A stretch of DNA of 64,000 nucleotides, taken from a virus. Lineage: Duplodnaviria > Caudoviricetes. The notes under the pieces were generated by a model. It was given only the letters and a program-made list of their open reading frames with translations, was not told where the DNA came from and searched no databases. Both the position numbers and the translations under genes were made by a program. The stretch is taken from IMG/VR virus record IMGVR_UViG_3300028364_000013. One strand, written 5' to 3'. Of the stretch, positions 2,125 to 35,997 are shown piece by piece. Numbering within the stretch: the stretch's first letter is position 1; every line of letters starts with the position of its first letter.

Positions 2125-2796
2125 TTTAAATTCCTTCAACAAGAATTTGATACAGCTAAAAGCGATGACAAACTACCTTGTCAATGCTCAGTTTGCAAAG
2201 AAACTTTTTATCTAACAAAACACCAAACACAAAGAGTATTAAATCCAAATCAACAAAAAAATGGAAATTTTTGTTCTAACAAATGTAGAGCAAAAAACAA
2301 CACTAAAAAAGAAACAATAAATTGCACAAACTGTGATGAAGAATTTGAAAAACAATATAGCCAAATTAAAAAATCAAAAAACCACTTTTGCTCTCTCTCT
2401 TGTAATGCAACCTACAACAACAAACACAAAACCCACGGCACTCGTAGGTCAAAACTTGAAGTTTGGCTGGAGGAGCAGTTAACCAAGCTTTATCCAAATA
2501 TCCAAATAGACTTCAACAAGAAAAATACTATAGAGTCTGAACTTGACATCTATATACCTTCATTAAACCTTGCTGTTGAGCTCAATGGAATCTTTCACTA
2601 TGAACCTATATACGGAGTTGATAAACTCCAGCAGATTCAAGAGAACGACATCTCCAAATCCAAGGCATGTCATGACTTAAAAATCGACTTATGCACCATC
2701 GACACAAGTGGTCAAAAATACTTCAAAGAATCTACTTCCAAAAAATATCTTGACATCATAAATAATATTATCAAAGAACGCATGTTAACCTCTTAG
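2125..2796 (+). pseudogene. Start-less PD-(D/E)XK endonuclease ORF, paralog of 41334..42011
   Basis: Open frame 2125-2796 (FKFLQQEFDTAKSDDKLPCQCSVC...ELDIYIPSLNLAVELNGIFHYEPIYG...KYLDIINNIIKERMLTS*), preceded by in-frame TAG, no ATG near the 5' end. Confidence 0.7.
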
Positions 2797-2852
2797 CCAG
2801 CTTTACCTGTTTCCAACAACCGCTACGTGGAAGCGGGTTAACTTTGGTTGTC

Positions 2853-2943
2853 TACTCCTGGTCGGACTCGAACCGACAACGTTTACCTGCATGGGTATCA
2901 GATTTTAAGTCTGATGCGTTTCAACCAATTTCGCCACAGGAGC
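2853..2943 (-). tRNA. tRNA-Leu(TAA)
   Basis: TCAGA-CTTAAAA-TCTGA, long variable arm. Confidence 0.92.
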
Positions 2944-2952
2944 ATTTGTTTG

Positions 2953-3033
2953 TACAGATAGCGAGAGTCGAACTCGCACGCCTCTCGGCCATAGCTTCTA
3001 AGGCTATTGTGTCTACCATTCCACCACATCTGC
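2953..3033 (-). tRNA. tRNA-Leu(TAG)
   Basis: ATAGC-CTTAGAA-GCTAT, long variable arm. Confidence 0.92.
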
Positions 3034-3046
3034 ATGGCGCTGTAGA

Positions 3047-3595
3047 TTAATCTACAGCTTTATATTTTCTAAAAGTCATACTCACTCTTGGGCCACAATC
3101 TCTATCGTGCTTAGGAATCCTGTGCAAATTTGTATCTTGGAATCCTGGAGGCATATAGAATAAAGAACCATTTTCTAACTTTCTCTTATTCTCTTCTGGA
3201 ACTACTCCTTTTTCTCCTTTTAACTTCCACCAAATTTCTCTTTCAGCCCCAAATGATACAACCGCTATCCCATCATTATGGTCAATTGAATGAGAGTCGT
3301 CAGCGTGCCATCCTAATCCATTTCTTGAGTTCATATATAAATTCAAGAAGCAAATATCCAAACTTGTTCCCAACTTTTTATTAACCTTTTCCATTATTTC
3401 CCTAATCGCAGGCAACATTGGTGTTGATTTATAAGTTGGAGCTCCACTGTGGTCTAAGTAAGAGTATTCAATGTCAGAATCTGCCATAAAACACTCTCTT
3501 CTCATCTTCGTCTCATCAATCCAACTAACATCCCTTACCAAGGTGTCAATAAAATCTTCATTGACCAAATCATTTATGTATACTAACTTTTTCAT
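3047..3595 (-). CDS. AlkB-like 2OG-Fe(II) dioxygenase
   Basis: LN.Y...NGLGWHADD (HxD), distal HRIPK and RVSMTFR motifs. Confidence 0.85.
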   Translation of the reverse strand: MKKLVYINDLVNEDFIDTLVRDVSWIDETKMRRECFMADSDIEYSYLDHSGAPTYKSTPMLPAIREIMEKVNKKLGTSLDICFLNLYMNSRNGLGWHADDSHSIDHNDGIAVVSFGAEREIWWKLKGEKGVVPEENKRKLENGSLFYMPPGFQDTNLHRIPKHDRDCGPRVSMTFRKYKAVD

Positions 3596-33180: not shown

Positions 33181-33896
33181 TTACTTTTCAGATTTCAATT
33201 TTATACCACAAGCTCTTTCAAACATTTCATATTGCTTAATAACATTTTTCCACATTTTATTTTTCATACCTTTTCCCCATTTAGTATTGAATTCAGCAGA
33301 ATCAAGAAACTTTCTTTGAGGTTTAACAAAATCTAAAAAATCAAGACCAATCTCACTCGATAAACCTGCGATATTTTGATGAATCCAATTATACTCAAAA
33401 ACTTGCATTAAGTCAGCATCTCTAATTATACCTTGCCTAATGTTTAAATCTTTACCATCAATTTCATAAGGATATTGTGTAGCATCAATTATTTCATTAA
33501 CTGAATCCAAGTCAACCTCAATATCTTCAGATTCAATAAATAATTTTATTATTTTTTTTGAATTTTTAATATTTACATCATCCGTCTTCTTACCTCCTGA
33601 GTGATTTACATCATGAAAAATGGCAGCTATTAATAACTCTCTTAATTCTTTTTCGCCAGAAACACCTTCCTCTATAGCTCCAATATAACAGTATTTCAAC
33701 ACTGTTAAAAGATGATTTAAGTTATGATAAGGTTTATCGTTAGAATTGCTATTGATGATAATATATTTAAAAGCTTTTTAAGATAATCATATTTATCTAT
33801 AATCTCAATTGCTTCTAATTTTGTGTCAACCTTTTTTTCTCCTTCATTTATAAAACCTCCTGTACCAGAAAAGTATCTGCATTCTTTGTTTTTCAT
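33181..33896 (-). pseudogene. HD-domain protein with apparent 5' frameshifts in A-runs
   Basis: PYHN..H and FHDVNH, RDADL motifs; frame breaks near 33777 and 33835. Confidence 0.6.
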
Positions 33897-33949
33897 TCAT
33901 TTATAATATTATAAAAATAATGCATAAAAATCAAATATTTGGACAAAAA

Positions 33950-33986
33950 AAAGGCTAAACAACTTTGAAGTTATTTAACCTTTTTG
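33950..33986 (-). terminator. Intrinsic terminator closing the large ncRNA unit
   Basis: AAAAGGTTAAATAAC..GTTGTTTAGCCTTTT plus T-run. Confidence 0.7.
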
Positions 33987-33989
33987 GTT

Positions 33990-34945
33990 TTAAAAGCCTG
34001 AGTTTACAGCATTTATTAGCGTCCTTTAATGACCTTACCCACATCATCTTGCGGTTAATCAATGTATCCACGCACCCTTTCAGGTGGTATACGCCAGTCT
34101 CGATACCTATGGGGTATCATTCCTATCGTGCAATCTAACTCTGTATTTTCCACCTACACTATCTTGCCAGACATATGCGAGCTTTCGTTACAATCGACAC
34201 CCACCTTGCGAGGATGAATGACTCCCTGATTCTGCCGAAGCATCCAGGGTCTGAGAGACCTTTTAATATACACGCCCATGAGACTTTCACTTTTTTTCTG
34301 TTTATAGTAAAAACCAGCCATGCCAAGGCTAATATATACTGCATGAGATATACAGTACGAAGAGACGTGCCCACAGGAGTGGTTTCATAACTTTTTGGTT
34401 ACAAAATGCCACACGCCTCTCTGTTAGTCTATGCTGACCAACAATTAAACCCGAATTACTTTCTACGAATAGTTAAGTAACCAAATCCAAATGAGATGAA
34501 GCCCTTGCGTTTCTTACACGCTCGAACAACACAACTAAGCTTTTCCTTTTCATCAGCCGAAGCCAACTTTTTTTGCAAAATTTCTAATGCTCAACTACCA
34601 TTTTTAATCTCATGATAGTTTACCTTGTCCAGGTAAGTACTCACTTATTGCATAGGTGTCCAACAGAATAAATTCTGAAGGCGAGGGTGACACCCCCTTT
34701 TATAGCTTGTTACCAAACTTTATCTTCCCACAAGGGGCTTGCAATGATTTTCATCACCACGAGACTCTACACAGCCTCAAAATGATTGTTATTTGAATTG
34801 TAAAAGCTGGTTCATGTTACATAACCAATTTAAAAGCGAAGGACTCTGCTATATTTCATACAGTTGAATGTTTGTCCCATTCTCACTTTCCTCACTTACT
34901 CTTACTGTCGAATGGACCTAAACATTTAGACCAATAACAATTTTT
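33990..34945 (-). ncRNA. Large structured non-coding RNA candidate (~950 nt, possibly GOLLD-like)
   Basis: No credible ORF; own TAGCTTTG promoter at ~34985 and a terminator; many hairpins (TTACCT/AGGTAA, AACTATCAT/ATGGTAGTT, TACTGTAT/ATGCAGTA, GATACC/GGTATC, TTCG loops). Confidence 0.65.
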
Positions 34946-35051
34946 TCAATATTTTTAATTCAAAGAACGTTTCCTTTTGTCTTGCGACTCTGCAAAGCTA
35001 AACTATTTATTAACACAATGCAAGCTTTTTTTAAAAAAAATAAAAACTTTT

Positions 35052-35690
35052 TTATTTTCTACCTTTTTCCCAACCTTGTTGAGTATGGTTTTCCAACTCA
35101 TGTTTTTTTATTTTCTTGTTTTCTCCATCTCTGGTAATCCAACAAGTTCCATACTGAGAGTTCTTCCCCCCTTTTCCAAGACCCTTCTTTGATTCGCTCA
35201 TCAATTTCTTTGTCTCTTCTGTATGACTCTTTCCACTCCAATCGTATTGCTTTACCTTGCCTAATACATGTAGTTTTTTCATATTTTTAGAAGCTTTTTC
35301 ACTATGCCACTTAGCATACTCTTTATCTTCCTTTAATTTAATAGTATGTACTTTTCCTCCACGTTTACCACCTTTTGAAGAGGATTTAATATTTAAAAAT
35401 CCACCTTGACCTCCAACCATAAGATTCATACAATCTTTTTTTGCAATCTCATTTAGGTTGACAACCTCCTCCTCTCTCCTCTTCAACTCTTCTCTGGAAT
35501 CTAAAAACTCCAGTATTTCTCTCTCATGGTTTTCTTCACCATGCTTGTTTATGGAATATCTCAGTCTTTTTCCTGAACCCAAATAACCATCTTCTAAATT
35601 GTCTGTTGAGTGCATTCCAATGTAATACTTGCCACTCAGCAAGTTTGTCGTCTTGTAAATGAAGTGAAACTTCTTTTCTTTTCTTGGCAT
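35052..35690 (-). CDS. GIY-YIG homing endonuclease with NUMOD3
   Basis: FIYKTTN..YYIG.H..YLGSG; HTEETKKLMSES. Confidence 0.88.
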   Translation of the reverse strand: MPRKEKKFHFIYKTTNLLSGKYYIGMHSTDNLEDGYLGSGKRLRYSINKHGEENHEREILEFLDSREELKRREEEVVNLNEIAKKDCMNLMVGGQGGFLNIKSSSKGGKRGGKVHTIKLKEDKEYAKWHSEKASKNMKKLHVLGKVKQYDWSGKSHTEETKKLMSESKKGLGKGGKNSQYGTCWITRDGENKKIKKHELENHTQQGWEKGRK

Positions 35691-35741
35691 AACCTATCTG
35701 TTTAAAGATAAATAGTACAAAAAAGTACAAAATCGACTAAG

Positions 35742-35814
35742 GGAATCCATACGGGATTCGAACCCGTGCCTCCTGCCGAAAGGCAAGCGCTCTATCCGCT
35801 GAGCTAATGGACAC
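35742..35814 (-). ncRNA. tRNA-like RNA, Glu(TTC)-like with 6-nt anticodon loop
   Basis: CTTGC-CTTTCG-GCAGG; D- and T-arms canonical; imperfect acceptor. Confidence 0.55.
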
Positions 35815-35897: not shown

Positions 35898-35997
35898 TGG
35901 CGAAGGGAGGATTCGAAACCTCCGACCCCCAATGCTGTCCATTCTTTCACAAGAACAACTAACACACTGGTGCTCTGACCAACTGAGCTACCTCGCC
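35898..35997 (-). ncRNA. tRNA-like RNA with elongated anticodon arm capped by a GTGA tetraloop
   Basis: Acceptor GGCGAGG/CTTCGCC; CCAGTG..TTCTT-GTGA-AAGAA..CATTGG. Confidence 0.65.

What the first reader, a model, noticed from the sequence alone, without database searches (positions are those of the whole stretch)
33990..34945. ~950-nt ORF-free, hairpin-dense RNA with its own promoter and terminator
This is a full transcription unit without a credible CDS, richer in GC than its flanks and full of stems with stable loops. Its size and position among phage tRNA genes fit the GOLLD class of giant ncRNAs. The 3' part (GGGAGTCATTCATCCT...CCGCAAG...TAAACTCAGGCTTT) resembles my recollection of such RNAs, but that is unverified. 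It is ~950 nt against the ~800 nt I recall for GOLLD, so it may be an expanded variant or a new class.
Basis: partly seen in the sequence, partly recalled or inferred. Interest (0 to 1): 0.7.

Follow-up and report, generated by a model that had tools for sequence, protein, structure and literature searches.

The report
GOLLD RNA with extra 5' module
The gene-free stretch is a true GOLLD RNA, a giant phage non-coding RNA known to build RNA-only cages, sitting among the tRNA genes of a jumbo phage; it is ordinary for its family except that about 150 extra bases at its front are a conserved, knotted RNA module that no database lists.

Summary
Rfam's GOLLD model (RF02032) matches window 34421-33995 on the minus strand over its full length at 169.4 bits (cut-off 150, E 8.5e-46). 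This is the conserved 3' domain. The whole unit runs from a Bacteroidota-type promoter (35023-34993) and a boxA-like leader to an intrinsic terminator (33985-33945).

The region has no credible ORF and is richer in GC than its flanks. Relatives support the structure by covariation. Metatranscriptome contigs from three marine studies, 89-97% identical to the window, lie wholly inside the RNA.

The length puzzle (~950 versus ~800 nt) is solved. The first 146 nt (34935-34790) are a separate pseudoknotted module, and the remaining 795 nt are GOLLD-sized. The module matches no Rfam family. It lies upstream of the canonical GOLLD start (env-38). In several relatives it has its own promoter, and it also occurs without GOLLD in cultured Flavobacterium phages (next to a tmRNA) and in a 735-kb megaphage.

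The 368-nt middle region is structured but matches neither the canonical 5' domain nor any fetched locus.

Verdict: a new, divergent member of a known family in its textbook context. The 5' module is the only new element.

The parts
34993..35023 (-). Candidate Bacteroidota-type promoter: -33 TTG (35023-35021), 20-nt spacer, -7 TAGCTTTG (35000-34993)
   Evidence: The regex and position match the cassette TTG-N17-22-TAnnTTTG found 72-75 nt upstream of the element in L076, L068, L102, L173 and L186, with a -7 box also in L164. It is the only minus-strand TAnnTTTG between 33816 and 36802. The motif itself is not enriched in the window (96 against 91 expected), so the support comes from conserved position only. 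Inferred, not shown.
34936..34986 (-). Leader with a small GCAA-capped hairpin and the boxA-like GTTCTTTGAA (34968-34959), followed by ...ATTG
   Evidence: There is an exact match at 34968-34959 on the minus strand. The same motif sits 15-31 nt before the element in L076, L068 and L102, and recurs before canonical P1. Flavobacteriaceae rrn leaders carry a look-alike, AGTTCATTGATTTATTG, after tandem TATATTTG promoters. The antitermination function is inferred.
34790..34935 (-). 5' pseudoknotted module (146 nt). Stem A 34916-34910 / 34882-34876. Helix B2 34905-34899 / 34806-34800. Helix B1 34897-34889 / 34843-34834. Invariant hairpin 34863-34860 / 34849-34846 (core CAACUGUAUGAAAUAUAGCAGA at 34866-34845). 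Hairpin C 34827-34823 / 34812-34808.
   Evidence: Covariance model R1 gives 158 bits here and 19 hits in viral contigs, plus megaphage LR756501 at 63.6 bits. In the pair test, 91.2% of cells pair against 37-55% in slid controls, and 19 pairs change on both sides against 4-8. Stem A is 100% paired and B1 99.3%. There is no Rfam match; the best E is 4.7.
34422..34789 (-). Middle region (368 nt), in the position and size range of a GOLLD 5' (cap) domain but not detectably homologous to the canonical P1-P13
   Evidence: MFE is -101.8 kcal/mol with z -3.63. nhmmer and blastn find no similarity to about 199 loci, including about 118 GOLLD loci. The canonical 5'-domain HMM and CM R2 (positive control L164 at 177 bits) find nothing here. 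RNA contigs cover it, and one hairpin (CUA-UUCG-UAG, 34472-34463) becomes CUC-UUCG-GAG in two of the RNA runs through the paired changes 34470 T>G and 34465 A>C.
33995..34421 (-). GOLLD 3' domain (Rfam RF02032; P14-P27 of the literature numbering)
   Evidence: 169.4 bits against a cut-off of 150, E 8.5e-46, model 1-416 of 416. By my count on the alignment, about 84 of about 98 consensus pairs form. Features kept: the A-rich loop of the first hairpin (CCAAAAAG), the long-range helix CGUGUAUAUU/AGAUUGCACG (8 of 10 pairs), the GAAA tetraloop and the terminal GUAAACUCAG loop. One hairpin (model 248-268) is deleted. Compensatory changes appear against L215. RNAalifold on 10 relatives gives 68 pairs, 43 with changes on both sides.
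34313..34333 (-). Terminator-like hairpin plus U-run inside the variable linker of the 3' domain
   Evidence: The consensus scan flags it. The stem covaries in L215, AGCC/GGCU to AAUCA/UGAUU. An 886-nt RNA-library contig reads through it.
33945..33985 (-). Intrinsic terminator: 17-bp stem 33985-33948 and U8 run 33952-33945
   Evidence: dG is -17.5 kcal/mol with z -3.79, and 0 of 200 shuffles fold as well. L215 keeps the stem through compensatory changes, and similarity collapses after the U-run.

Best explanation
This is the GOLLD RNA gene of an uncultured jumbo phage. The contig is 195 kb, about 78% complete, from lake water, and the host is probably a member of Bacteroidota.

Transcription (inferred). 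The gene is transcribed on the minus strand. It starts at a host-type promoter, passes a leader resembling the host's ribosomal-RNA leader (small hairpin plus boxA-like GUUCUUUGAA), and ends at an intrinsic terminator. The primary transcript would be about 1,045 nt.

Three parts. (1) A 146-nt pseudoknotted 5' module that is not part of canonical GOLLD. (2) A 368-nt structured region in the place of GOLLD's variable 5' 'cap' domain. (3) The conserved 427-nt GOLLD 3' domain.

Assembly (inferred by homology to the solved GOLLD structures). The 3' domain should self-associate into a two-layered ring. The contacts would be its A-rich first loop, the long-range kissing helix, its GAAA tetraloop and a loop-loop contact. 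The 5' region should cap the ring to give a closed RNA-only cage of roughly 10-14 copies.

Function. What the cage does is not known for any GOLLD. The gene sits in a 37-tRNA island, carries an rRNA-style leader, and in relatives has a tmRNA gene close by. The likeliest role is therefore in the phage's takeover of translation, holding or organising tRNAs or ribosomes late in infection.

What is shown: family membership, the anatomy, covariation, and presence in RNA libraries. What is inferred: promoter use, antitermination, oligomerisation and function.
For: Family: RF02032 at 169.4 bits, above the gathering score of 150, E 8.5e-46, full model. It is the only Rfam hit in 33500-35700 and the only copy in the genome.

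Structure conserved in the 3' domain: the 88%-identical L215 shows CACCU-GAAA-GGGUG to CAUUC-GAAA-GAAUG and UGC-UUCG-GCA to UAC-UUCG-GUA. An independent RNAalifold run on 10 relatives gives 68 pairs, 43 kept through changes on both sides, including the long-range helix.

Hallmark loops kept: see the alignment.

Context typical of GOLLD: a phage record with 37 co-oriented tRNA genes. The literature places GOLLD in phages and prophages near tRNA islands (Kretsch 2025, PMC12286853; review PMC12990946).

RNA evidence: in three marine metatranscriptome studies, contigs 89-97% identical lie only inside 33997-34894. One 886-nt contig spans 33997-34886 and bridges the module, the middle region and the 3' domain. 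The 3' stops at 33997 and 34002 match the Rfam end at 33995.

Promoter, leader and terminator.

Cage formation by the family: env-38 forms a 14-mer, Sag full-length a 12-mer, and the Sag 3' domain alone mainly a decamer.

5' module.
Against: The score of 169 bits is low for the family; relatives score 285-332. One 3'-domain hairpin is missing.

The canonical 5' domain, which sets the stoichiometry in the solved structures, was sought with an HMM and a CM and not found. Assembly into a closed cage is therefore an extrapolation.

The RNA evidence is from assembled contigs of relatives in runs chosen because they hold this stretch. DNA carry-over in those libraries cannot be excluded, and ends of contigs are not ends of RNAs.

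The promoter rests on conserved position only; the motif is not enriched in the window.

The boxA reading rests on resemblance. The two host rrn leaders read carry a 2-mismatch variant, not the same word.

No function is known for any GOLLD.
Confidence: 0.9

Rival explanations
1. There are two RNAs, not one. The 146-nt 5' module would be an independent small RNA (or would be cut off), and the functional GOLLD would be only the 795-nt body. The single transcription unit in this phage would be a secondary fusion.
For: In L076, L068, L102 and L182 the promoter cassette recurs between the module and canonical P1. In L173 and L186 the leader motif recurs just after the module.

The env-38 construct that forms cages starts at the site homologous to L076 position 385, about 240 nt downstream of the module.

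The module occurs without any GOLLD in FpV4-like phages and in megaphage LR756501.

RNA contigs from two studies end inside the module, at 34886 and about 34894.
Against: In the window there is no second promoter cassette, no second boxA and no terminator between the module and the rest. An 886-nt RNA-library contig bridges the junction at 34790/34789. No terminator follows the module in the relatives either, so read-through transcripts are expected there too.
Confidence: 0.35
2. The 5' module is a processing device, either a self-cleaving ribozyme or a nuclease guide, that defines the 5' end of whatever large stable RNA follows it (GOLLD, tmRNA or other).
For: Long invariant single-stranded stretches lie between covarying helices in a double-pseudoknot fold, as in ribozymes and riboswitches.

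The module precedes three different large RNAs in different phages.

RNA contigs from two studies end inside it.
Against: It matches no known ribozyme or riboswitch family at E <= 10. The order of its helices differs from the HDV-like fold (my comparison from general knowledge). Contig ends are weak evidence and could be assembly breaks at the variable stem A. No biochemical data exist.
Confidence: 0.12
3. The region is protein-coding, or is a cis-regulatory leader of the downstream genes (the 59-aa ORF at 33896-33717 and the HD phosphohydrolase at 33702-33181), rather than a stand-alone RNA gene.
For: Several ORFs of 45-71 aa overlap the region. The downstream genes are on the same strand.
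Against: The ORFs have no family support. The substitution pattern in relatives is compensatory for RNA helices. A strong, conserved terminator separates the RNA from the downstream genes, and similarity ends there. Rfam identifies the 3' half as GOLLD.
Confidence: 0.02

Closest known systems
GOLLD RNA env-38 (833 nt; cryo-EM 14-mer nanocage; Kretsch et al., Nature 2025, PMC12286853)
   Same: The 3' domain is homologous over its full length (Rfam model 1-416). It keeps the first hairpin's A-rich loop, the long-range kissing helix, the GAAA tetraloop and the terminal loop. The phage and tRNA context is the same. The 795-nt body is similar in size.
   Different: The score is far lower than for env-38-like relatives (169 against 285-332 bits). 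One 3'-domain hairpin (model 248-268) is absent. The canonical 5' domain, whose start is conserved between env-38 and L076, is not detectable. An extra 146-nt module precedes the RNA.
Streptococcus agalactiae GOLLD (700 nt; 12-mer; its 3' domain alone forms mainly decamers; review PMC12990946)
   Same: It is a reduced GOLLD that lacks some helices, P21b among them. The hairpin missing here is the second hairpin of the same three-way junction, so it is probably P21b (my mapping, not verified). It shows that GOLLDs with trimmed 3' and 5' domains still assemble.
   Different: It comes from a Firmicutes prophage or chromosome, has no 5' pseudoknot module described, and was not compared at the sequence level here.
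ROOL and OLE RNAs (other large ornate RNAs)
   Same: They are large, ORF-free, highly structured and partly phage-associated. ROOL also forms cages and sits near tRNAs.
   Different: No Rfam match to ROOL or OLE at E <= 1. They are unrelated folds.
Bacterial rrn operon leader (promoters, boxB hairpin, boxA; Nus-factor antitermination)
   Same: There is a host-type promoter, then a small hairpin, then GUUCUUUGAA...AUUG, ahead of a long structured stable RNA that contains terminator-like hairpins. Flavobacteriaceae rrn leaders read here carry AGUUCAUUGAUUUAUUG after tandem TATATTTG promoters.
   Different: The window has a single promoter. The host motif differs at two positions. No Nus dependence has been shown.
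Phage-encoded tmRNA loci of FpV4-like Flavobacterium psychrophilum phages
   Same: They carry the same 5' module, 78.6% identical with compensatory changes, at the head of an ORF-free stable-RNA region.
   Different: There the module is followed after about 390 nt by a tmRNA (RF00023, 58-66 bits), and no GOLLD exists in the genome.

Membership tests
GOLLD RNA (Rfam RF02032) | Covariance-model score at or above the curated gathering score over the conserved 3' domain | tested here: met
   169.4 bits against 150, E 8.5e-46, model 1-416 of 416, window 34421-33995 minus strand.
GOLLD RNA (Rfam RF02032) | The 3'-domain helices and the long-range pseudoknot or kissing helix are supported by covariation | tested here: met
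   About 84 of about 98 consensus pairs form, and the long-range helix keeps 8 of 10 pairs. Compensatory changes appear against L215. RNAalifold on 10 sequences gives 43 of 68 pairs with changes on both sides.
GOLLD RNA (Rfam RF02032) | Conserved loops used for inter-subunit contacts: the A-rich L14, the GNRA L24, L21a with a central GC, and L27 | tested here: met
   The loops CCAAAAAG, GAAA, UGGCAA and GUAAACUCAG sit at the corresponding model positions. The assignment of P numbers is my inference from the text of PMC12990946 and PMC12286853. The second hairpin of the P21 junction is deleted.
GOLLD RNA (Rfam RF02032) | Canonical 5' domain (P1-P13); the literature describes it as variable, so it does not decide membership | tested here: not met
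   The nhmmer profile of seven env-38-like 5' domains gives no hit. CM R2 of P1 and the following helices gives at best 5.3 bits, E 4.6, in the window's region, against 177 bits for the control L164. A structured 368-nt region (z -3.6) occupies the position.
GOLLD RNA (Rfam RF02032) | Phage or prophage location, often in or near tRNA arrays | tested here: met
   The window lies in an IMG/VR viral record of 195 kb. It holds 37 tRNA genes on the same strand, with phage-type neighbours.
GOLLD RNA (Rfam RF02032) | Expressed as a discrete, abundant RNA | tested here: inconclusive
   RNA-library contigs from three studies, 89-97% identical, are confined to 33997-34894. One 886-nt contig lies wholly inside. 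These are contigs of relatives, not reads of this phage, so strand, level and ends are not shown.
GOLLD RNA (Rfam RF02032) | Homo-oligomeric RNA-only cage of 10-14 copies | not testable with these tools
   Known for env-38 and Sag GOLLD. This RNA would need mass photometry or cryo-EM.
ROOL / OLE / other Rfam large RNAs | Covariance-model match | tested here: not met
   No family other than GOLLD matches at E <= 1 in 33500-35700.
Any Rfam family, tested on the 5' module alone | Covariance-model match for 34770-35010 with permissive filters | tested here: not met
   The best hits have E 4.7-10 and 14-18 bits, all far below their cut-offs.
rrn-type antitermination leader (boxB/boxA) | A boxA word between the promoter and the stable RNA, shared with host rrn leaders | tested here: inconclusive
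   GTTCTTTGAA lies at 34968-34959 and at the equivalent place in relatives. Two Flavobacteriaceae rrn leaders carry GTTCATTGAT and GTTCTTTTAG, not the identical word. NusB/NusE binding was not tested.

The most novel reading that the evidence does not exclude
The first 146 nt would be an undescribed class of structured RNA: a double-pseudoknot module of Bacteroidota phages. It would be placed behind an rRNA-style leader at the head of different large stable RNAs (GOLLD, phage tmRNA, and an unknown GC-rich RNA of about 330 nt in a 735-kb megaphage), either as its own small gene or, as here, fused to GOLLD. On this reading it is a shared maturation, stability or assembly device for phage stable RNAs. 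It would offer an experimental handle on GOLLD biology, because cultured FpV4-like Flavobacterium phages also carry it. The fused form here, together with the non-canonical middle region, would then build a cage with a cap unlike the solved ones.
Probability: 0.4. Interest if true: 0.6.

Novelty: new member of a known kind. Interest (0 to 1): 0.35.

Why it matters
As a GOLLD in a phage tRNA island it adds little: the family, its context and its cage structures are published, and the scan has met GOLLD many times.

Two things are worth keeping.

First, this is a divergent GOLLD. It scores barely above Rfam's cut-off, with a close relative (L005) below it. Its 5' two-fifths match no canonical domain. 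GOLLD diversity in Bacteroidota jumbo phages is therefore under-sampled by the current model. The 5' domain sets cage stoichiometry in the solved structures, so this RNA is a natural test of how far the cap can vary.

Second, the 146-nt 5' module is a well-supported, unlisted RNA motif. It travels with GOLLD, with tmRNA and with a third RNA. It is also present in isolated phages of a culturable host, where expression, processing and knock-out phenotypes can be measured. No function is yet known for any GOLLD, so a genetically tractable companion element is useful.

Tried and rejected
1. Published GOLLD alignment (Kretsch Supplementary File 3). It covers only the 3' domain, so it could not place the 5' module.

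2. My by-eye match of the window's middle region to canonical P1-P2 (GGCUGUGUAGAGUCUC against GGCCGUGUAUGGUCG; CCC-CUUGU-GGGAAGAUAAAGU against CCA-CGAAAG-UGGGAUAAAGU). CM R2 did not support it, so I dropped it.

3. Close relatives for covariation in the middle region. An exact 30-mer scan of viral contigs found none. The metagenome scan found one contig (L215), which ends inside the GOLLD and lacks the 5' part.

4. Bacterial origin of the module. None passed model R1. This is not an exhaustive test.

5. tmRNA in the window's own genome. Only tRNA cross-hits appeared, none above the cut-off. The record is about 78% complete, so absence is not shown.

6. Sigma-70 promoter scan. Nothing relevant. 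The host type uses a different consensus.

7. TAnnTTTG enrichment. Not enriched.

8. Literature for a Bacteroidota boxA consensus. Not found in the papers searched. An exact GTTCTTTGAA is not upstream of the 16S genes in the two readable Flavobacteriaceae leaders; near variants are.

9. Parts of 33800-35100 without RNA-contig cover (33800-33996 and 34895-35100). I do not count these as evidence of transcript ends beyond a weak hint.

10. Paper look-up by id PMC4140389 (my guess for Weinberg 2009). Not held.

Full report
OBSERVATION. The stretch 33990-34945 is real as described, and it reads on the minus strand. The longest ORF inside is 71 aa on either strand, and none of the four ORFs tested has a Pfam match above cut-off. 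GC is 0.38-0.44 inside against 0.24-0.33 in the flanks. The window carries 37 tRNA genes, all on the minus strand. It is part of a 195,333-bp IMG/VR viral record, about 78% complete, whose DNA is held by lake-water metagenome runs.

IDENTITY. Rfam release 15 gives one hit in the region. GOLLD (RF02032) matches window 34421-33995 on the minus strand at 169.4 bits against a gathering score of 150, with E 8.5e-46 and model positions 1-416 of 416. ROOL, OLE and all other families are absent at E <= 1. It is the only copy in the genome.

The Rfam model and the published alignment cover GOLLD's conserved 3' domain only. In the cryo-EM RNA env-38 (833 nt), residues 1-420 form the variable 5' 'cap' domain and 421-833 form the 3' 'ring'. 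By my count on the alignment, about 84 of about 98 consensus pairs form in the window. The long-range helix CGUGUAUAUU/AGAUUGCACG keeps 8 of 10 pairs. The A-rich loop of the first hairpin, a GAAA tetraloop and the terminal GUAAACUCAG loop are all present. One hairpin (model 248-268) is deleted. It is the second hairpin of a three-way junction and so probably corresponds to P21b, which the 700-nt Streptococcus agalactiae GOLLD also lacks. That mapping is my inference.

The score is low for the family. Relatives that share the 5' module score 285-332 bits, and two (L005 at 74.8, L205's record at 91.8) fall below Rfam's cut-off. The window's GOLLD therefore belongs to a divergent fringe of the family.

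COVARIATION. L215 is a metagenome contig 88% identical over 33882-34395. It changes CACCU-GAAA-GGGUG to CAUUC-GAAA-GAAUG, UGC-UUCG-GCA to UAC-UUCG-GUA, and AGCC...GGCU to AAUCA...UGAUU, all of which keep pairing. RNAalifold on the window plus nine relatives, run without Rfam's structure, predicts 68 pairs. Of these, 43 are kept through changes on both sides, including the long-range helix.

ENDS OF THE UNIT. Downstream of the GOLLD 3' end lies an intrinsic terminator. Its 17-bp stem is at 33985-33948 and its U8 run at 33952-33945, with dG -17.5 kcal/mol and z -3.8. L215 keeps the stem through compensatory changes, and similarity collapses directly after the U-run.

Upstream, the 116-nt gap after a GIY-YIG homing-endonuclease gene (35690-35052) holds TTG (35023-35021), 20 nt, and TAGCTTTG (35000-34993). 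This fits the Bacteroidota TTG/TAnnTTTG promoter type. The motif alone is not enriched in the window. However, the same cassette sits 72-75 nt before the homologous point in five relatives, and a -7 box sits at a similar distance in a sixth.

Between the promoter and the first conserved structure lie a small GCAA-capped hairpin and GTTCTTTGAA (34968-34959). I tested that only in part. The word recurs at the equivalent place in the relatives. Two Flavobacteriaceae rrn leaders that I read carry tandem TATATTTG promoters followed by AGTTCATTGATTTATTG and GTTCTTTTAG, which are look-alikes rather than the identical word. Two terminator-like hairpins lie inside the RNA, at 34333-34313 and 34697-34677. 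They would give an antitermination leader something to do; that is inference.

THE EXTRA 150 nt. The only blastn match of the region in GenBank phages is a roughly 100-nt piece at the 5' end. It is 78.6% identical to 29 FpV4-like Flavobacterium psychrophilum phages and carries compensatory changes. Those phages have no GOLLD at all. Instead they have an unannotated tmRNA about 390 nt downstream.

A covariance model of this piece (R1) finds it in 19 viral loci and in the 735-kb megaphage LR756501. On the 19-sequence alignment my five-helix model was tested formally. It consists of stem A, two helices B1 and B2 whose 5' strands lie in stem A's loop and pair downstream (a double pseudoknot), an invariant hairpin, and hairpin C. 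91.2% of cells pair against 37-55% when partners are slid. 19 pairs change on both sides against 4-8. Stem A is 100% paired and B1 99.3%. No Rfam family matches the module even at E 10.

Of 20 other contigs carrying the module, 14 have a GOLLD 3' domain. Only 2 of 80 pattern-sampled GOLLD loci carry the module, so it marks a small subgroup.

The module is outside canonical GOLLD. The env-38 construct printed in the paper's supplement begins at a site (ATGGCCGCTATGGTCG...) homologous to position 385 of the L076 unit, about 240 nt downstream of the module. In L076, L068, L102 and L182 the promoter cassette recurs between the module and canonical P1. There the module looks like its own small gene placed directly in front of the GOLLD gene.

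In the megaphage, the order is a boxA-like word, the module, a second boxA-like word, and then an ORF-free GC-rich stretch of about 330 nt with no Rfam match. That record has neither GOLLD nor tmRNA.

In the window, by contrast, no second promoter, boxA word or terminator separates the module (34935-34790) from what follows. Here the module is fused into the GOLLD unit: 146 + 795 = 941 nt.

THE MIDDLE REGION. The 368 nt between the module and the 3' domain (34789-34422) lie where the cap domain should be, and their size fits (325-420 nt in the solved GOLLDs). They fold significantly better than shuffles (z -3.6). Yet they show no similarity to any of about 199 fetched loci. A profile HMM and a CM of the canonical 5' domain both fail here, while the CM scores 177 bits on an untrained control. 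The variant letters seen in RNA contigs include one compensatory pair in a UUCG hairpin (34470 T>G with 34465 A>C). I therefore call this region a non-canonical 5' domain. A fold equivalent to P1-P13 is neither shown nor excluded.

EXPRESSION. In three marine metatranscriptome studies, assembled contigs 89-97% identical to the window lie only within 33997-34894. One 886-nt contig equals 33997-34886 from end to end, bridging two thirds of the module, the middle region and the 3' domain. The 3' stops (33997, 34002) coincide with the Rfam end at 33995.

These are contigs of relatives, in runs that were chosen because they hold the stretch, and DNA carry-over cannot be excluded. Two contigs end inside the module (34886 and about 34894). 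This may hint at 5' processing or may be an assembly break at the variable stem. It remains unexplained.

MECHANISM. The family is known to self-assemble without protein. The 3' domain alone forms mainly decamers, and full-length RNAs form 12-mers (Sag) or 14-mers (env-38), with the 5' domain capping the assembly and fixing the number. The window keeps the 3'-domain contact elements listed above, so a dihedral ring or cage of about 10-14 copies is the best-supported mechanism. I put cage formation itself at about 0.6, because the cap is non-canonical.

The biological role is unknown for all GOLLDs. The 37-tRNA island, the rRNA-style leader and the closeness of phage tmRNA genes to GOLLD in six related contigs (1-2.5 kb) point to the translation apparatus.

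VERDICT. As a GOLLD this is a new, divergent member of a known family in its usual setting, of modest interest. The fused 146-nt pseudoknot module is the part that appears undescribed and deserves follow-up.

Noticed in passing
L002 1620-3948 (Flavobacterium phage FpV4, KT876724.1 81438-83768 region): A 2.3-kb ORF-free gap without annotation in a cultured phage holds the 5' module (L002 2493-2634) and an unannotated tmRNA (L002 3026-3440, RF00023 at 58 bits). The same layout occurs in four IMG/VR contigs of this phage type.
   Followed up: partly
L336 2300-3300 (uncultured megaphage LR756501.1, 735 kb): The order is a TATCTTTG -7 box, GTTCTTTGAA, the 5' module (63.6 bits), a second GTTCTTTGAAA, and then an ORF-free GC-rich stretch of about 330 nt (2700-3030) with no Rfam match, before a terminator near 3268-3300. 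It may be a further undescribed structured RNA. The record has no GOLLD and no tmRNA.
   Followed up: partly
L193, L179 and L182: the ~90 nt directly upstream of the module: A tRNA-shaped fold that appears circularly permuted. It has a long closing stem GUGUGGGUGU/ACACCCAC, a T arm, an acceptor-like stem closed by a loop, and a D arm. It resembles the permuted tRNA-like modules noted elsewhere in this scan near or inside GOLLD.
   Followed up: no
Contigs behind L182, L164, L160, L186, L068 and L005 (records G003, G007, G012, G013, G015, G016): A phage tmRNA gene lies within 1-2.5 kb of the GOLLD gene in six module-bearing contigs. The window's own record shows no tmRNA above cut-off, but it is only about 78% complete.
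   Followed up: partly
window 35741-35813 and 35898-35997 (minus strand): Two odd tRNA-like genes lie just upstream of the homing-endonuclease gene. ARAGORN calls one 'tRNA-???' with a 2-nt anticodon, and the other is a 100-nt Rfam tRNA hit. Earlier notes of the scan describe them as anticodon-defective mimics.
   Followed up: no
window 34313-34333 and 34677-34697 (minus strand): Terminator-like hairpins with U-rich tails lie inside the GOLLD RNA. The first covaries in L215. RNA-library contigs read through both.
   Followed up: partly
window 34886-34898 (minus strand), inside the 5' module: RNA-library contigs from two independent studies end here, within the loop of stem A and the 5' strand of B1. 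This may be a processing site or only an assembly break.
   Followed up: no
L076 ext +158 and +249; L068 ext +127 and +235: Two further near-identical copies of the promoter/leader cassette stand in tandem between the module and canonical GOLLD P1. This resembles the tandem promoters of rrn operons.
   Followed up: partly
window 35052-35690 (minus strand) and 33181-33702 (minus strand): The flanking genes are a GIY-YIG/NUMOD3 homing endonuclease (phrog_314, 3e-36) and an HD-domain phosphohydrolase. The closest phage homologues of the HD protein are in Lak megaphages of Prevotella and in the 735-kb LR756501.
   Followed up: partly
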